Shown here: positions 13,861 through 42,770 of the stretch, piece by piece | Numbering within the stretch: position 1 is the first letter of the stretch | Layout of the letters: each line of letters starts with the position of its first letter | DNA from: a virus | Virus record (IMG/VR): IMGVR_UViG_3300036861_001052 | Location: 64,001 to 128,000 of that record | Length of the DNA stretch: 64,000 nt | Strand: one strand, 5' to 3' | Notes under the pieces: model-generated | Told to the model about the DNA's origin: nothing | Seen by the model: only the letters and a program-made list of their open reading frames with translations | Databases searched by the model: none | Made by a program: the position numbers and the translations under genes

Positions 13861-14394
13861 ATGTACCAGAGCACGGGACTTGGTCGCGGCGGCGGAGGTG
13901 GTGGGCACGGCGGCGGCGGTCATGGCGGGGGAGGCCACGGCGGTGGGGGTCATGGTGGCGGAGGCGGTGCTCGCGCGGGCGGTGGAGGCGGAGCGCGTGT
14001 CAGCGGAGGCGGCGGAGCGCGTCACGGCGGCGGCGGCCATCACGGTGGTCACCACGGCGGACGCGGCCGCGGTCCCACGAACGTTTTCGTGACCGACGGC
14101 GGCTGGGGACCTGGATGGGGCTGGGGGCCCGGCTATGCGGAGACCGTGTACGTCGACTCGTCGTGCGCTGTCGTCGACGACAGCGGCGTCTGTGTTTGTA
14201 AGTCTTTGAATCTCGACGGCAGCTGCGCGCGGCCCATCATCGGCTGGGTCGGCGGTCGCCCGGTCTACGGACTCGGCGCGGACGAAGAGAAGGCATCGGT
14301 CGCGCCCTGGATCGCCGGCGGGATCTTGCTCGCGCTTGCCGTCGGCGCGTACGCCCTCGATAAGAAGGGCCCAGCTCCGCTCCGTAGCTCGTAA
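13861..14394 (+). CDS. Gly/His-rich tail-anchored protein
   Basis: GGGGH repeats, Cys cluster, VYGLGA, C-terminal TM + KK. Confidence 0.75.
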   Translation: MYQSTGLGRGGGGGGHGGGGHGGGGHGGGGHGGGGGARAGGGGGARVSGGGGARHGGGGHHGGHHGGRGRGPTNVFVTDGGWGPGWGWGPGYAETVYVDSSCAVVDDSGVCVCKSLNLDGSCARPIIGWVGGRPVYGLGADEEKASVAPWIAGGILLALAVGAYALDKKGPAPLRSS

Positions 14395-14403
14395 TCGCGG
14401 ACC

Positions 14404-14655
14404 GTGCAGCTCAAGCGGTGCCGAGGAGTCTGCGGCGAAGAGTGGCCGATCGAGTCCTTCTCTCGCGATCCGGGTAACTCCGACGGTCGCCGGAACGAAT
14501 GTAACGCTTGCCGGCAGGAGCGGCGGGCAGCGCTCGCTCTGGGCGCAGCGCGGAAACGGCCGTGGCAGCACAAATTCGAGCGGGGCTATGACTACACGAC
14601 CGAGCGAGAGCGGCGGCGGGGCGAGGCTGCGGCGCGGCGGCGCATGATCGCATAG
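14404..14655 (+). CDS. Zn-finger protein resembling HNH endonuclease N-terminus
   Basis: CRGVC...FSRDPGNSDGRRNECNAC; no nuclease domain follows. Confidence 0.55.
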   Translation: MQLKRCRGVCGEEWPIESFSRDPGNSDGRRNECNACRQERRAALALGAARKRPWQHKFERGYDYTTERERRRGEAAARRRMIA

Positions 14656-14692
14656 GGGTTCTGGCCGGGAATTGCCCCGCCGGCGCCTCTAC

Positions 14693-14721
14693 TTGAGCTT
14701 CGGCCGGTGTCCCGGTAGAGT
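14693..14721 (+). promoter_or_regulatory. Sigma70-like promoter
   Basis: TTGAGC-17nt-TAGAGT. Confidence 0.45.
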
Positions 14722-40927: not shown

Positions 40928-40990
40928 GAATAGCAAGAGAAACGCTTTCTCGTAGAGGCCTCGGCGCGGGGGCTGTAGAGTCCGGGGCAC

Positions 40991-42457
40991 GTGTCTCGGT
41001 ACGGAAGCGTCTCGATCTCGAGCCCGGACTCGCTCGTCTCGAAGATCGCCGAGAGCTCCGAAGCCGCCGATCTCGAGTCTCGCACGAACGCCGCCATCGG
41101 CGCTCTGCCGCCGGGCTACGTCGTCGTCGCTCTCACGCTCGCCGGCGCCGGCGATGGCAACGCTTTCACGGTGACGATCGAAGCGGGCAAGGCCGCCGAC
41201 GTTGAGGGAGGATTCCTCTCGCCGCCGACGGTGAAGTGCTACTCGGCGAGTAACGCCGAGGCCCTGCTAGAGCTCGAAGAGAGCGTGAGGCCTTCGAGCG
41301 GGATCGTCGCGGACGTGCAGATCGCTGGGTCCAGCAAGGGCCAGATCTTCATGGGCATGATCGTGAGTAGCCCCGTTGCCGGATCCGGCACGGGTCCTAC
41401 TGGCGTTACCGGACCGACGGGATCTACGGGCCCCACGGGGCCCACGGGAATGCCCGGAGAGGCCGCTCTAACCGGCGCGACAGGGCCCACCGGGGGAACT
41501 GGACCGACCGGTATGACGGGACCGACGGGGGCCGCATCGACGGTCACGGGTCCGACGGGCCCCACGGGCCCGACCGGTCGCACGGGCCCGACCGGACCGA
41601 CCGGAGTCACCGGACCGACGGGCGCCACGGGATCGACCGGACCTACGGGCCCGACCGGAGCGCAAGGCGCAGCGTCCACGGTGACCGGGCCTACGGGTCC
41701 AACCGGCCAGACGGGCCCTACGGGCAGCGCGGGCGTCACAGGCCCTACGGGCGCAACGGGATCGCAAGGCGCGGCCTCGACAGTCACGGGTCCGACCGGA
41801 CCGACCGGAGCGACGGGAGCGACGGGAGCGACGGGAGTCACGGGCCCCACCGGTCGGACGGGCCCGACTGGAGTCACCGGCCCTACTGGATCGACGGGGC
41901 CCACGGGCCCGACTGGAGTCACCGGGCCCACTGGATCTACGGGACCGACGGGGCCATCAGGCCCGACCGGAGCCGCGGGCGCGCAGTCGGAAGGCACCGC
42001 CACGGCGACCGAGTTTCAAACGAATATCTTCGATACCAGCACGACGGGCACCGACAAATGGACCGTGATTACGGGATCGGCGTTTTCCTACGCCGGCTCT
42101 GCGGACTTCACGCTCACTGCGTCCTCGTGCGTCCTCACATACAGCGGAACGAACGGGCGCGTGGTTTTGGTACTCTTGTCGACGAGCCTCGATCCGGAGG
42201 CGACAGGAAGTCACGCGGTTGCGATGGCTATTGCCCTGAACGACGATCTCGTCGGTAACACTACGCTAAATAACGCCGCTACCTTGGCGGGAGCGCAGTA
42301 CGGCGGCATGTTCAGCGACAACGCGGAGAGCCTCACGTGTCAGCGGCGAGTGACCCTGAATAGCGGAGACACGCTCCGGCCAGTCGGGGCGACCTACGGC
42401 ACGGTGGCCGAAGATCTCAAGGTGAACGGCCTGGTCATGACGGTTTTCCCGCAATGA
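40991..42457 (+). CDS. Collagen-like fibre or spike protein, short
   Basis: N-domain clearly paralogous to 38171 (xSRYGS..., AGAGDG, AGxSKGQ.FMGM); different C-terminal head. Confidence 0.9.
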
Positions 42458-42464
42458 GGTTACC

Positions 42465-42770
42465 ATGGACGTAGCGATCATCCCCGGCACAGAAGACGAC
42501 AGGCGCGCCGCTTTCCTCGCGTTCTCGTCGGTCATCGGCGGCGGCATCATCGCTTACGAAGCTGCGCGCGCGATCCGGGACGGAGAGCTCCTCGGGACCG
42601 ACGAGGTAGAGAAAAATCCGAAGGCGGGTTTTTTCGCGATGGCCGGCGGCATCGCCATGCTCGGCGTCGCCATGAACGAGACCGCGAAAGAAGTCGGCTG
42701 GAAGCCGCTCCTACTCGGCGGCGCCGGCATCACGGCGTTCGTGATGGTGGCTCGGGCCGTGCGTCGGTGA
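42465..42770 (+). CDS. Small multi-TM membrane protein
   Basis: Three hydrophobic segments; GAGG RBS. Confidence 0.7.
   Translation: MDVAIIPGTEDDRRAAFLAFSSVIGGGIIAYEAARAIRDGELLGTDEVEKNPKAGFFAMAGGIAMLGVAMNETAKEVGWKPLLLGGAGITAFVMVARAVRR

What the first reader, a model, noticed from the sequence alone, without database searches (positions are those of the whole stretch)
13861..42770. Morphogenesis region of a large tailless, membrane-containing bacterial virus
Seen: 29 kb, almost all co-oriented, with three beta-rich proteins, a basic core-like protein, about 27 tail-anchored proteins, PG-binding domains and collagen fibres, and no recognisable terminase, portal, HK97 capsid or tail gene. Established: known jelly-roll prokaryotic viruses with internal membranes (PRD1, PM2, SH1, P23-77) have genomes of roughly 10-35 kb. 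Inference: a much larger (over 64 kb) relative with its own DnaB, chaperones and anti-defence genes, possibly an undescribed lineage. No packaging ATPase is visible in this window.
Basis: partly seen in the sequence, partly recalled or inferred. Interest (0 to 1): 0.85.

Follow-up and report, generated by a model that had tools for sequence, protein, structure and literature searches.

The report
Shell-and-membrane genes, large tailless phage
This 29-kb gene block most likely builds the particle of an uncultured 138-kb bacterial virus that seems to have a jelly-roll protein shell, a lipid membrane and a protamine-like DNA core instead of the head, tail and DNA-packaging motor of ordinary phages.

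Summary
The window lies in a complete 138,414-bp IMG/VR virus record (end repeat, CheckV 100%). Region 13861-42770 is one co-oriented block with 27 C-terminally anchored membrane proteins, an 818-aa protein whose first 490 residues are 40% Arg+Lys, two collagen fibres and three adjacent soluble proteins. The whole genome gave no terminase, portal, HK97 capsid, FtsK or A32 match. Its only true P-loops are DnaB, a DnaC-like loader and a non-core AAA protein.

AlphaFold2 models of two of the three proteins are jelly-roll-type beta-sandwiches. Their best matches are weak (Z 6.5-8.3) and include non-viral sandwiches; the third protein was not modelled. The three families have 573, 583 and 175 relatives in metagenomes, all unnamed, on contigs up to about 140 kb.

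New here: a G-L-G motif is 4-fold enriched only in this module, and its positions are kept in orthologues. A transglutaminase-like cysteine protease beside the module is present in 5 of 5 relatives. Together these suggest adenovirus-style maturation cleavage.

The scan found this virus group before on other DNA (e1-5765380, e1-5956784, e1-3000315).

The parts
13861..14394 (+). Gly/His-rich tail-anchored protein, first gene of the block
   Evidence: C-terminal TM; two G-L-G motifs
14763..15383 (+). Transglutaminase-core (papain-like) cysteine protease candidate, proposed maturation protease
   Evidence: Pfam Transglut_core 22.6 bits against cut-off 23, E 1.3e-4. Conserved at 64-85% identity in 5 of 5 relatives, next to the module. 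Protease role is inferred.
15383..20652 (+). Run of about 10 tail-anchored membrane proteins, including two paralogues with PG_binding_1-like repeats (17578-18438, 18438-19049)
   Evidence: several conserved in L009 and L011
20652..21218 (+). Conserved soluble 188-aa protein, unknown role
   Evidence: 45-68% identity in 5 loci; no Pfam or PHROG family
21215..24694 (+). Four tail-anchored proteins (642, about 48, 349 and 123 aa)
24816..27272 (+). Arg/Lys-rich membrane-anchored core protein with C-terminal G-M-G-E-Y-F repeats, proposed DNA condenser
   Evidence: 40.4% R+K over residues 1-490, net +182, hydrophobic segments at 502-603. Conserved in all 7 related loci. No family.
27448..27483 (+). 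Exon 1 (12 codons) of shell-protein candidate 1
   Evidence: Matches the N-terminus of the uninterrupted orthologues in L006-L008
27484..28260 (+). Intervening sequence, probable group I intron, carrying a homing-endonuclease ORF at 27566-28195
   Evidence: Absent from L006-L008. Rfam RF00028 18.4 bits, E 0.045, below gathering score 50. ORF: phrog_5046 2e-14; LAGLIDADG_3 E 0.0021, sub-threshold.
28261..29028 (+). Exon 2 of shell-protein candidate 1 (267 aa when spliced), the best-conserved gene of the module
   Evidence: 573 homologues. AF2 pLDDT 77.1, pTM 0.77, beta-sandwich. Best fold matches TasA Z 6.9, Omono River virus protrusion Z 6.5, SPV1 Z 5.9, P23-77 VP16-VP17 complex Z 4.8.
29140..30132 (+). 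Shell-protein candidate 2: N-terminal 60-residue helix plus jelly-roll domain
   Evidence: 583 homologues. AF2 pLDDT 66.0. PBCV-1 capsid chain Z 8.3, iridovirus MCP 7.8, SPV1 7.1 with 138 of 178 aligned, PRD1 P3 6.5, SH1 6.3; also PHM 7.6.
30141..31046 (+). Shell-protein candidate 3, fold untested
   Evidence: 175 cluster representatives at E<=0.001. Syntenic in L006-L009, L011 and L012. No detectable paralogy to the other two.
31093..35350 (+). Eight tail-anchored proteins (31093, 31959, 32345, 33169, 33622, 34588 and 34835 among them)
35372..35992 (+). J-domain (DnaJ-like) protein
   Evidence: Pfam DnaJ E 3.3e-6, 27.6 bits against cut-off 27.8; conserved in 5 loci
36414..38169 (+). Small proteins, four of them tail-anchored
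38171..40927 (+). Collagen-like fibre, 918 aa, with the shared N-terminal domain
   Evidence: Pfam Collagen 9e-37; N-terminal domain shared with other fibre genes; PHROG tail-fibre families
40991..42457 (+). Collagen-like fibre, 488 aa
   Evidence: Pfam Collagen 3e-24
42465..42770 (+). Small protein with three hydrophobic segments, last gene of the block

Best explanation
The block is the virion (morphogenesis) module of a complete 138-kb dsDNA virus of a peptidoglycan-walled bacterium. The virus belongs to a large uncultured family with 110-140-kb genomes that is not a tailed phage.

Proposed working, all inferred except where the For line says otherwise:
1. Three adjacent, highly conserved soluble proteins form the outer protein shell. 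At least two of them are jelly-roll sandwiches.
2. About 27 proteins anchored by one C-terminal helix, each ending in a short basic tail, populate a virion lipid membrane. Whether it lies under or over the shell is open.
3. The 818-aa protein, with a +182 Arg/Lys-rich N-terminal half tied to membrane segments, condenses the genome against that membrane. DNA would then be enclosed by co-assembly, not pumped by a motor.
4. A conserved transglutaminase-like cysteine protease at the head of the block cleaves the many [hydrophobic]-x-G-L-G sites. This would free N-terminal domains from their anchors during maturation.
5. PG-binding-like domains and a set of collagen fibres with a common N-terminal anchor domain serve attachment and entry.
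For: Virus and complete. IMG/VR record with direct terminal repeats, CheckV 100%. The first 25 nt recur 127 nt before the end.

Bacterial host. Amidase_2+PG_binding_1 lysin; SLT transglycosylase and an M15-like peptidase, both core genes; DnaB plus an IstB/DnaC-like loader.

Not a recognisable tailed phage.
- Six-frame searches of the genome gave 0 matches at E<=1 for Terminase_6N, TerL_ATPase, Phage_portal and HK97 Phage_capsid, while the control genomes matched.
- All 44 called proteins of >=250 aa, 70 proteins in all, were scanned against Pfam without any head, tail or packaging family.
- 34 of 40 proteins had no PHROG family.

No motor.
- A Walker-A scan of all six-frame ORFs >=80 aa gave 14 pattern matches. 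Only 3 are true P-loops: the loader, DnaB and a 519-aa AAA protein.
- The FtsK and A32 profiles touch only DnaB and the loader, below cut-off.
- The AAA protein is missing from a 96%-complete relative.

Shell candidates.
- 573, 583 and 175 relatives.
- Fixed gene order in 6 related loci.
- Beta-sandwich models whose matches include SPV1, PBCV-1, iridovirus, PRD1, STIV, SH1, HHIV-2 and P23-77 capsid proteins.

Membrane. 27 tail-anchored proteins.

Core protein. Composition and charge; conserved in 7 of 7 related loci.

Maturation.
- G-L-G occurs 31 times in 38 module proteins, against 7.2 +/- 2.7 in 1000 shuffles (maximum 16). In 159 proteins outside the module it occurs 13 times against 17.0 +/- 3.9.
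- Motif positions are kept in orthologues while neighbouring residues vary.
- The protease candidate is conserved in 5 of 5 relatives.
Against: - The fold matches are weak. The best Z values (8.3 and 6.9) are at the level the tool reports as typical for models without a clear match. Foldseek found no match at E<=0.001 in the PDB or BFVD. Non-viral sandwiches score equally (PHM Z 7.6, TasA 6.9, 4-1BBL 6.0).
- The 29140 model is only moderately confident (pLDDT 66).
- The third protein was not modelled.
- Absence of terminase, portal and HK97 rests on sequence profiles and motifs. About 100 small or orphan proteins were never folded.
- Three collagen proteins match PHROG tail-fibre families.
- The nearest ESM Atlas clusters carry an automatic Uroviricota label.
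- The transglutaminase match is just under Pfam's cut-off. Cleavage at G-L-G is not shown, and some motifs lie inside TM helices.
- No lipid, particle or host has been seen.
Confidence: 0.55

Rival explanations
1. It is a very divergent tailed phage (Caudoviricetes). Its HK97-fold capsid, portal, terminase and tail genes are too diverged for profile searches, and the membrane-protein block serves something else, for example superinfection exclusion, lysis or a replication compartment.
For: - Collagen proteins match PHROG tail-fibre families, E to 6e-77.
- Automatic Uroviricota labels on the nearest Atlas clusters.
- Lysin, transglycosylase, DnaB, Cpn10 and a J-domain protein are common in large tailed phages.
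- Many large orphan proteins were never folded, for example 596, 842 and 562 aa.
Against: - No terminase, portal or HK97 match at E<=1 in six-frame searches.
- Only three true P-loop proteins exist in the genome, and all are assigned elsewhere.
- The two best-conserved, capsid-like genes model as beta-sandwiches, not HK97 folds.
- The tail-fibre matches run mainly through collagen repeats, which occur in fibres of non-tailed viruses too (recalled: PRD1 P5).
Confidence: 0.12
2. It is a virus without an icosahedral jelly-roll shell: an enveloped, pleomorphic or nucleocapsid-type particle. The tail-anchored proteins would sit in an outer envelope, and the three beta-rich proteins would be matrix, nucleocapsid or spike proteins.
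For: - 27 membrane proteins and a protamine-like core protein fit an enveloped nucleoprotein particle as well.
- The spliced protein's best matches are a fibre subunit (TasA Z 6.9), TNF-family trimers and the PRD1 spike P5 (Z 5.2) rather than major capsid proteins.
- The 29140 protein has a 60-residue N-terminal helix, like a stalked spike.
- No motor is present.
Against: - The beta domain of the 29140 protein aligns best with the shell-forming jelly rolls of PBCV-1, iridovirus, SPV1, PRD1, STIV and SH1.
- Very high conservation of all three genes (57-89%, 57-77% and 33-71% identity in the related loci that hold them) is more usual for shell proteins than for spikes.
- A separate family of collagen fibres already fills the spike role.
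Confidence: 0.2
3. It is not a virion module. The record would be a large plasmid-like or vesicle-transferred element whose membrane-protein block builds a cell-envelope or secretion structure.
For: - No hallmark virus gene was found by sequence.
- A 127-nt end overlap only shows a circular assembly.
- TasA-like and TNF-like sandwiches also occur in cellular fibres.
Against: - IMG/VR and CheckV class it as a complete virus.
- Lysin, transglycosylase and M15 peptidase are conserved.
- Three abundant, strongly conserved adjacent structural genes with capsid-type fold matches.
- No conjugation or partition family among 70 proteins scanned against Pfam.
- The spliced-protein profile (A2) matched only G005 itself among the 401 genomes searched in G005's order, so there is no sign of residence in chromosomes.
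Confidence: 0.05

Closest known systems
Portogloboviridae: Sulfolobus polyhedral virus 1 (SPV1, PDB 6oj0)
   Same: SPV1 capsid chains are among the top matches for both modelled proteins: Z 7.1 with 138 of 178 residues aligned for the 29140 protein, and Z 5.9 for the spliced protein. No packaging ATPase was found here, and SPV1 likewise has none (recalled). A membrane plus a protein-condensed DNA core is the architecture proposed here.
   Different: SPV1 infects an archaeon and has a genome of about 20 kb (recalled). This one is 138 kb and carries bacterial wall-lysis enzymes. There is no sequence similarity: profiles A1-A3 found nothing among PDB sequences. Here there are three shell candidates, a 490-residue Arg-rich protein, about 27 tail-anchored proteins and collagen fibres.
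Sphaerolipovirus-type viruses (P23-77, SH1, HHIV-2): two adjacent single-jelly-roll capsid genes
   Same: Adjacent genes for small beta-sandwich proteins, presumed internal membrane, tailless. Weak fold matches: SH1 Z 6.3 and HHIV-2 Z 6.1 for the 29140 protein; the P23-77 VP16-VP17 complex Z 4.8 and HHIV-2 Z 4.7 for the spliced protein.
   Different: Those viruses have an FtsK/HerA-type packaging ATPase next to the capsid genes and genomes of 17-31 kb (recalled). No such ATPase exists here. The Z scores are not above background.
Tectiviridae/Corticoviridae (PRD1, PM2) and other double-jelly-roll viruses
   Same: Tailless design with a protein shell over a membrane that carries entry and wall-degrading proteins. 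PRD1 P3 aligns at Z 6.5 and STIV at Z 6.3 with the 29140 jelly roll.
   Different: No double jelly roll in either model, no A32/FtsK ATPase, and a genome about ten times larger.
Adenovirus core and maturation system (protein VII/mu and adenain; recalled, not tested by homology)
   Same: An Arg-rich DNA-condensing protein, and a short Gly-containing cleavage-type motif with a hydrophobic residue four positions upstream ([MLVFY]-x-G-L-G here; (M/I/L)-X-G-X-G in adenovirus, recalled). The motif is spread over many virion proteins.
   Different: The candidate protease is a transglutaminase-core protein, not an adenain. Cleavage is not shown, and there is no sequence relation. This is a similarity in how it may work, not membership.

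Membership tests
Caudoviricetes (tailed phages) | Large terminase subunit (ATPase plus nuclease) | tested here: not met
   PF03237 and PF03354 gave 0 matches at E<=1 in the six-frame genome search. None among 70 proteins against Pfam. The only true P-loops are the DnaC-like loader, DnaB and a classical AAA protein. This holds at the sensitivity of sequence profiles only.
Caudoviricetes (tailed phages) | HK97-fold major capsid protein | tested here: inconclusive
   PF05065 gave 0 matches. The two best-conserved structural proteins model as beta-sandwiches. Other orphan proteins were not folded.
Caudoviricetes (tailed phages) | Portal protein and tail proteins | tested here: inconclusive
   PF04860 gave 0 matches, and no tube, sheath or tape-measure family was found among 70 Pfam scans. 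Three collagen proteins do match PHROG tail-fibre families.
Double-jelly-roll viruses (PRD1-adenovirus lineage) | [quoted passage not shown] | tested here: inconclusive
   Each of the two models has one sandwich domain. It aligns to a single jelly roll of PBCV-1, iridovirus, ASFV and PRD1 capsid proteins at Z 6.5-8.3. The third protein was not modelled. No fused form was found: the 2 longer hits look like read-through of interrupted genes.
Double-jelly-roll viruses (PRD1-adenovirus lineage) | FtsK/HerA/A32-type packaging ATPase | tested here: not met
   PF01580 and PF04665 touch only the P-loops of DnaB and the loader, at 14.8 and 10.8 bits, below cut-off. Walker-A scan.
Sphaerolipovirus-type viruses (two vertical single jelly rolls) | Two adjacent single-jelly-roll capsid proteins homologous to VP16/VP17 or VP4/VP7 | tested here: inconclusive
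   Z 4.7-6.3 to P23-77, HHIV-2 and SH1 chains. No sequence match.
Portogloboviridae (SPV1) | Single-jelly-roll shell proteins like VP4/VP10 | tested here: inconclusive
   6oj0 chains at Z 7.1 (138 of 178 aligned, rmsd 3.6) and Z 5.9 (126 aligned). These do not stand above non-viral sandwiches.
Portogloboviridae (SPV1) | Sequence homology, archaeal host, genome of about 20 kb | tested here: not met
   No PDB sequence match with profiles A1-A3. Bacterial lysis genes. Genome of 138,414 bp.
Group I intron (for 27484-28260) | Interrupts a conserved gene that is uninterrupted in relatives | tested here: met
   L006-L008 encode the joined N-terminus without the insert or the endonuclease ORF.
Group I intron (for 27484-28260) | Catalytic core matching the Rfam model | tested here: inconclusive
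   RF00028 18.4 bits against gathering score 50, E 0.045 in a 1-kb search. Nothing at gathering threshold. Splicing in RNA could not be checked.
Transglutaminase-like cysteine proteases (for 14763-15383) | Transglut_core domain | tested here: inconclusive
   22.6 bits against cut-off 23, E 1.3e-4. Cys, His and Asp candidates were seen by eye in the translation. Activity is not testable here.

The most novel reading that the evidence does not exclude
This is the structural module of a founding member of a realm-level lineage of large (110-140 kb) bacterial viruses with three distinguishing traits. They build a jelly-roll shell around a membrane. They enclose their DNA without any packaging motor, by condensing it on a membrane-tethered protamine-like protein. 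They mature by a dedicated cysteine protease that reads a G-L-G code, an adenovirus-like core and maturation logic arrived at independently in bacteria.
Probability: 0.3. Interest if true: 0.92.

Novelty: new variant of a known kind. Interest (0 to 1): 0.8.

Why it matters
All known tailless dsDNA viruses of bacteria have small genomes, roughly 10-20 kb (recalled), and almost all use an FtsK/HerA-type motor. A widespread family would break both rules if it has genomes seven to ten times larger, no detectable motor, a protamine-like core protein and a candidate proteolytic maturation code. Hundreds of sequence clusters already exist in metagenomes.

Such a family would add a major branch to the bacterial virosphere. 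It would also give a bacterial system in which the origin of jelly-roll capsids, membrane acquisition and motor-less genome enclosure could be studied.

There is a practical point too: current virus-annotation pipelines give these genomes no structural annotation at all.

Tried and rejected
Similarity to known phages. Megablast of 20 kb and tblastn of the 29140 protein against 50,697 phage records gave no match.

RNA genes. No tRNA in the window. Rfam at gathering threshold found nothing in the window.

Structure searches that gave little.
- Foldseek against the PDB for both models: no match at E<=0.001.
- Foldseek against BFVD for the spliced-protein model: best E 0.059.
- ESM Atlas for the 30141 protein and its relative P0255: only unnamed virus clusters and no stored model, so no fold information.

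Paralogy and sequence links.
- Profile-profile comparison of the three shell candidates gave probabilities of 0.2-1.1%, so no paralogy is detectable.
- Profiles A1-A3 against PDB sequences returned only coiled-coil or chance rows.

Fused forms. The search for longer proteins gave 2 hits (P0405, P0406). Both look like read-through of interrupted genes, not fusions.

Host. Relatives sit on contigs binned to 1 Pseudomonadota, 2 Pirellulales and 1 Pseudomonadales MAG. A2 matched only G005 itself among the 401 genomes searched in G005's order. I rejected any host call.

Packaging ATPase candidates. The two small 'Walker A' hits at 31013-32032 are not P-loop proteins. The 519-aa AAA protein is not a core gene.

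Complex prediction. The three shell candidates were sent together. The job returned no answer (score 0.00, controls not run) and is not used either way.

Expression and splicing. No RNA holder was listed for 27300-30200.

Literature. Three full-text searches (listings and abstract starts only) showed no description of such a virus. The VIPR preprint (outline and passages) says nothing on virion type. Supplementary files were not opened and may hold relevant genome lists.

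
Full report
WHAT THE DNA IS. The window is bases 64001-128000 of a single 138,414-bp contig with 65% G+C. Its first 25 nt recur 127 nt before the end. The record is an IMG/VR virus with direct terminal repeats, and CheckV rates it 100% complete. Because ordinary ORF lists are swamped by spurious frames at this G+C content (399 ORFs), I called genes by third-position G+C. That gave 192 genes for the genome. In the window, the + strand is coding from the start to about 51.8 kb.

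THE OBSERVATION. Region 13861-42770 is one co-oriented block of about 40 genes.
- Tail-anchored proteins. A hydropathy scan of the last 45 residues of every + strand ORF gave 26 with a clear C-terminal helix. I discarded 2 as wrong-frame ORFs and added 3 weaker ones by eye, for a total of 27. Nearly all end in a short Lys/Arg tail.
- Basic protein. The 818-aa protein at 24816-27272 has 152 Arg and 46 Lys in its first 490 residues (40.4%, net +182). Three hydrophobic segments follow, then a 200-residue tail with repeated G-M-G-E-Y-F.
- Collagen. Two genes at the 3' end are strong collagen-repeat proteins.
- PG-binding. The 'PG-binding domains' are only sub-threshold Pfam matches in two paralogous anchored proteins.
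- Other Pfam matches. A transglutaminase-core protein (22.6 bits against cut-off 23) and a J-domain protein.
- No family. Nine of the ten largest proteins of the block have no Pfam and no PHROG family.

THE INTERRUPTED GENE. Relatives L006-L008 encode an uninterrupted protein. In the window its first 12 codons are at 27448-27483 and its continuation starts at 28261. The 777-nt insert, with its endonuclease ORF (27566-28195; phrog_5046 E 2e-14; LAGLIDADG sub-threshold), is absent from the relatives. Rfam's group I model matches the 3' part only weakly (18.4 bits, gathering score 50). I could not check splicing in RNA. Two longer homologues from other samples look like read-through of inserts at other positions in the same gene.

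IS THERE A HEAD-TAIL-MOTOR SET ELSEWHERE?
- Six-frame profile searches of the whole genome found nothing at E<=1 for Terminase_6N, TerL_ATPase, Phage_portal and HK97 Phage_capsid. The same searches did match several control genomes.
- The FtsK and poxvirus-A32 profiles touched only the P-loops of DnaB and its neighbour, below cut-off.
- A Walker-A pattern scan of every six-frame ORF of >=80 aa gave 14 matches. Only three are real P-loops: an IstB/DnaC-like protein, DnaB and a classical AAA protein.
- The AAA protein is absent from a 96%-complete relative and so is not a core gene.
- All 44 called proteins of >=250 aa, 70 proteins in all, were scanned against Pfam, and 40 against PHROGs. No head, packaging, tube, sheath or tape-measure family appeared.
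- Against this, three collagen proteins match PHROG families labelled tail fiber (E to 6e-77, several stretches each). The nearest ESM Atlas clusters of the 30141 protein carry an automatic Uroviricota label.
- The gaps left by my gene caller contain the VIPR array, the loader and further collagen genes. They have no room for a hidden terminase.

THE THREE BETA-RICH PROTEINS. This was the second refutation test.
- The spliced protein (searched as exon 2) has 573 homologues, the 29140 protein 583, and the 30141 protein 175 cluster representatives. None is named, and they lie on contigs up to about 140 kb.
- AlphaFold2 with 69- and 64-row alignments gave pLDDT 77.1 (pTM 0.77) for the spliced protein (exon 2) and pLDDT 66.0 (pTM 0.50) for the 29140 protein.
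- The 29140 model is a 60-residue helix plus a sandwich. In the unbiased search of 48,161 chains, the sandwich's best matches were a PBCV-1 capsid chain (Z 8.3), EhV-201 (7.6), PHM (7.1), SPV1 (6.8), faustovirus (6.7) and ASFV p72 (6.6).
- The second look at the 29140 model added iridovirus MCP (7.8), Orf virus scaffold (7.2), SPV1 (7.1, 138 of 178 aligned), PRD1 P3 (6.5), STIV and SH1 (6.3) and HHIV-2 (6.1).
- The spliced-protein model matched TasA (6.9), an Omono River virus protrusion (6.5), 4-1BBL (6.0), SPV1 (5.9), PRD1 P5 (5.2), the P23-77 VP16-VP17 complex (4.8) and HHIV-2 (4.7).
- These are jelly-roll-type sandwiches and clearly not HK97 folds. But the scores are at the level the tool calls common for unmatched models, Foldseek found nothing significant, and non-viral sandwiches score alike.
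- The three families show no detectable paralogy and no sequence link to any solved structure.

THE FAMILY AND ITS CORE.
- Synteny. The module is collinear in relatives: 27 of 41 region genes have a match in L006, whose stretch does not reach the first eight genes. 18 of 41 match in the more distant L009.
- Core set. Against one whole related virus record and one MAG contig, 73 and 45 of the 192 genes have matches, and 38 have matches in both.
- What the core holds. It includes the basic protein, the three shell candidates, several anchored proteins, the J-domain protein, DnaB, two glycosyltransferases, a 1279-aa protein with a tyrosine-recombinase domain, an SLT transglycosylase, a GDSL-type lipase and an M15-like peptidase.
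- Protease candidate. The transglutaminase-like protein is present next to the module in 5 of 5 relatives at 64-85% identity.
- Host. An Amidase_2+PG_binding_1 lysin and these wall enzymes point to a bacterial host. MAG bins holding relatives are mixed, and a search of 401 genomes in G005's order found only G005 itself, so I name no host.

A MOTIF THAT MARKS THE MODULE.
- G-L-G occurs 31 times in the 38 non-collagen proteins of the block, against 7.2 +/- 2.7 in 1000 composition-preserving shuffles (maximum 16).
- G-[LIMV]-G occurs 51 times against 21.1 +/- 4.5.
- The form with a hydrophobic residue (or Ala) two positions before the first Gly occurs 36 times against 7.9 +/- 2.9.
- In 159 proteins outside the block there is no excess: G-L-G 13 against 17.0 +/- 3.9.
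- Many sites lie near N-termini, including those of two shell candidates, or just before the membrane anchor. One lies between the membrane segments and the C-terminal domain of the basic protein.
- In orthologues the G-x-G positions are kept while neighbouring residues change.
- The pattern resembles the adenovirus protease consensus as I recall it. With the conserved papain-like protein beside it, the most economical reading is a maturation-cleavage code. No cleavage has been shown.

HOW IT MOST LIKELY WORKS (INFERENCE). Anchored proteins and the basic protein insert into a membrane patch. The Arg-rich half binds and condenses the replicated genome. The three soluble proteins assemble a shell on, or under, this membrane. 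The protease then trims G-L-G sites, releasing domains from their anchors. Fibres with a shared N-terminal domain dock on the particle, and at entry the PG-binding-like proteins and wall enzymes open the cell wall. No motor is needed in this scheme, which fits its absence. The nearest known analogue is SPV1, an archaeal virus, but membership in its family fails on sequence, host and size.

RIVALS. The rivals are a hyper-divergent tailed phage (0.12), an enveloped or pleomorphic particle without a jelly-roll shell (0.20) and a non-viral element (0.05). The evidence for and against each is in the Rival explanations section.

EARLIER NOTES OF THIS SCAN. Three follow-ups on other genomes reached the same reading and the same closest analogue. 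My fold searches, genome-wide hallmark searches and P-loop scan were run independently on this genome and agree. Other first-reader notes on this genome proposed the intron, the G-x-G code and the protamine-like protein. I tested the first by comparison with relatives, the second by shuffling and orthologue comparison, and the third by composition.

VERDICT. This is a new, large variant of the tailless membrane-containing virus design, with no demonstrated kinship to known families. Interest is high and the evidence is computational.

Noticed in passing
window 38171-40927 and 40991-42457; genome 34836-35873(-), 37251-38933(-), 41172-42641(-) = L002/L003: At least five collagen-fibre genes share a conserved N-terminal domain of about 130 aa, followed by collagen stalks of different length and unrelated C-terminal heads. 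This looks like a set of alternative fibres docking to one site. A sixth possible copy starts within genome 21098-25471(-).
   Followed up: partly
P0405, P0406 (relatives of the spliced protein): Two longer homologues look like in-frame read-through of inserts at other positions of the same gene. Several 236-aa cluster members start at the same internal codon as the window's truncated ORF. The gene seems to be a repeated target of mobile introns.
   Followed up: partly
window 51849-55688 (-): A 1279-aa protein with a tyrosine-recombinase (Phage_integrase) domain at residues 455-526 is a core gene: 51% identity over about 1350 aa in G003 and 48% in G004. That is far larger than an integrase. 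It could be a resolvase-, protelomerase- or topoisomerase-like genome-processing enzyme.
   Followed up: no
window 24816-27272 (residues 650-770) and 34835-35350: The short repeat G-M-G-E-Y-F (also G-T-G-E-Y-F) occurs three times in the basic protein's C-terminal part and four times in a small tail-anchored protein. It is conserved in all related loci. Its function is unknown.
   Followed up: partly
window 10273-12801 and 8981-9739: An 842-aa protein with a long coiled coil and a Pro-rich stretch, and a 252-aa protein, lie just upstream of the module. Both are core genes without any family. They may be scaffold or assembly factors.
   Followed up: no
L001:14834-15490(-), L001:15772-16350(+), L002:9138-9623(-), L002:10209-11207(-): Four cell-envelope enzymes: an SLT transglycosylase, a GDSL/SGNH lipase-like protein, an M15/VanY-like peptidase and an Amidase_2+PG_binding_1 lysin. 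The first three are core genes. A conserved lipase in a presumed membrane-containing virus may deserve a look.
   Followed up: no
window 43846-44370; L004:3709-4704(-); window 35372-35992: The virus encodes its own Cpn10/GroES (E 5.9e-27) and two J-domain proteins.
   Followed up: no
L005:1806-3365(-) = genome 127806-129365: A classical AAA+ ATPase of 519 aa is 74% identical in the closest relative but absent from a 96%-complete one. It is an accessory gene, not a packaging motor.
   Followed up: yes
genome about 2558-4173 (L001): My gene caller leaves a 1.6-kb non-coding gap here. Earlier notes of this scan place a VIPR guide-RNA array and a Cas7-like gene at this spot. I did not re-examine it.
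   Followed up: no
L002:4748-6160(+): A DDE transposase with a SWIM zinc finger (E 5e-21) sits inside the viral genome.
   Followed up: no
window 17578-18438 and 18438-19049: Two adjacent tail-anchored proteins are paralogues (BLASTP E 2e-10). Each carries one or two copies of a PG_binding_1-like helix motif.
   Followed up: partly
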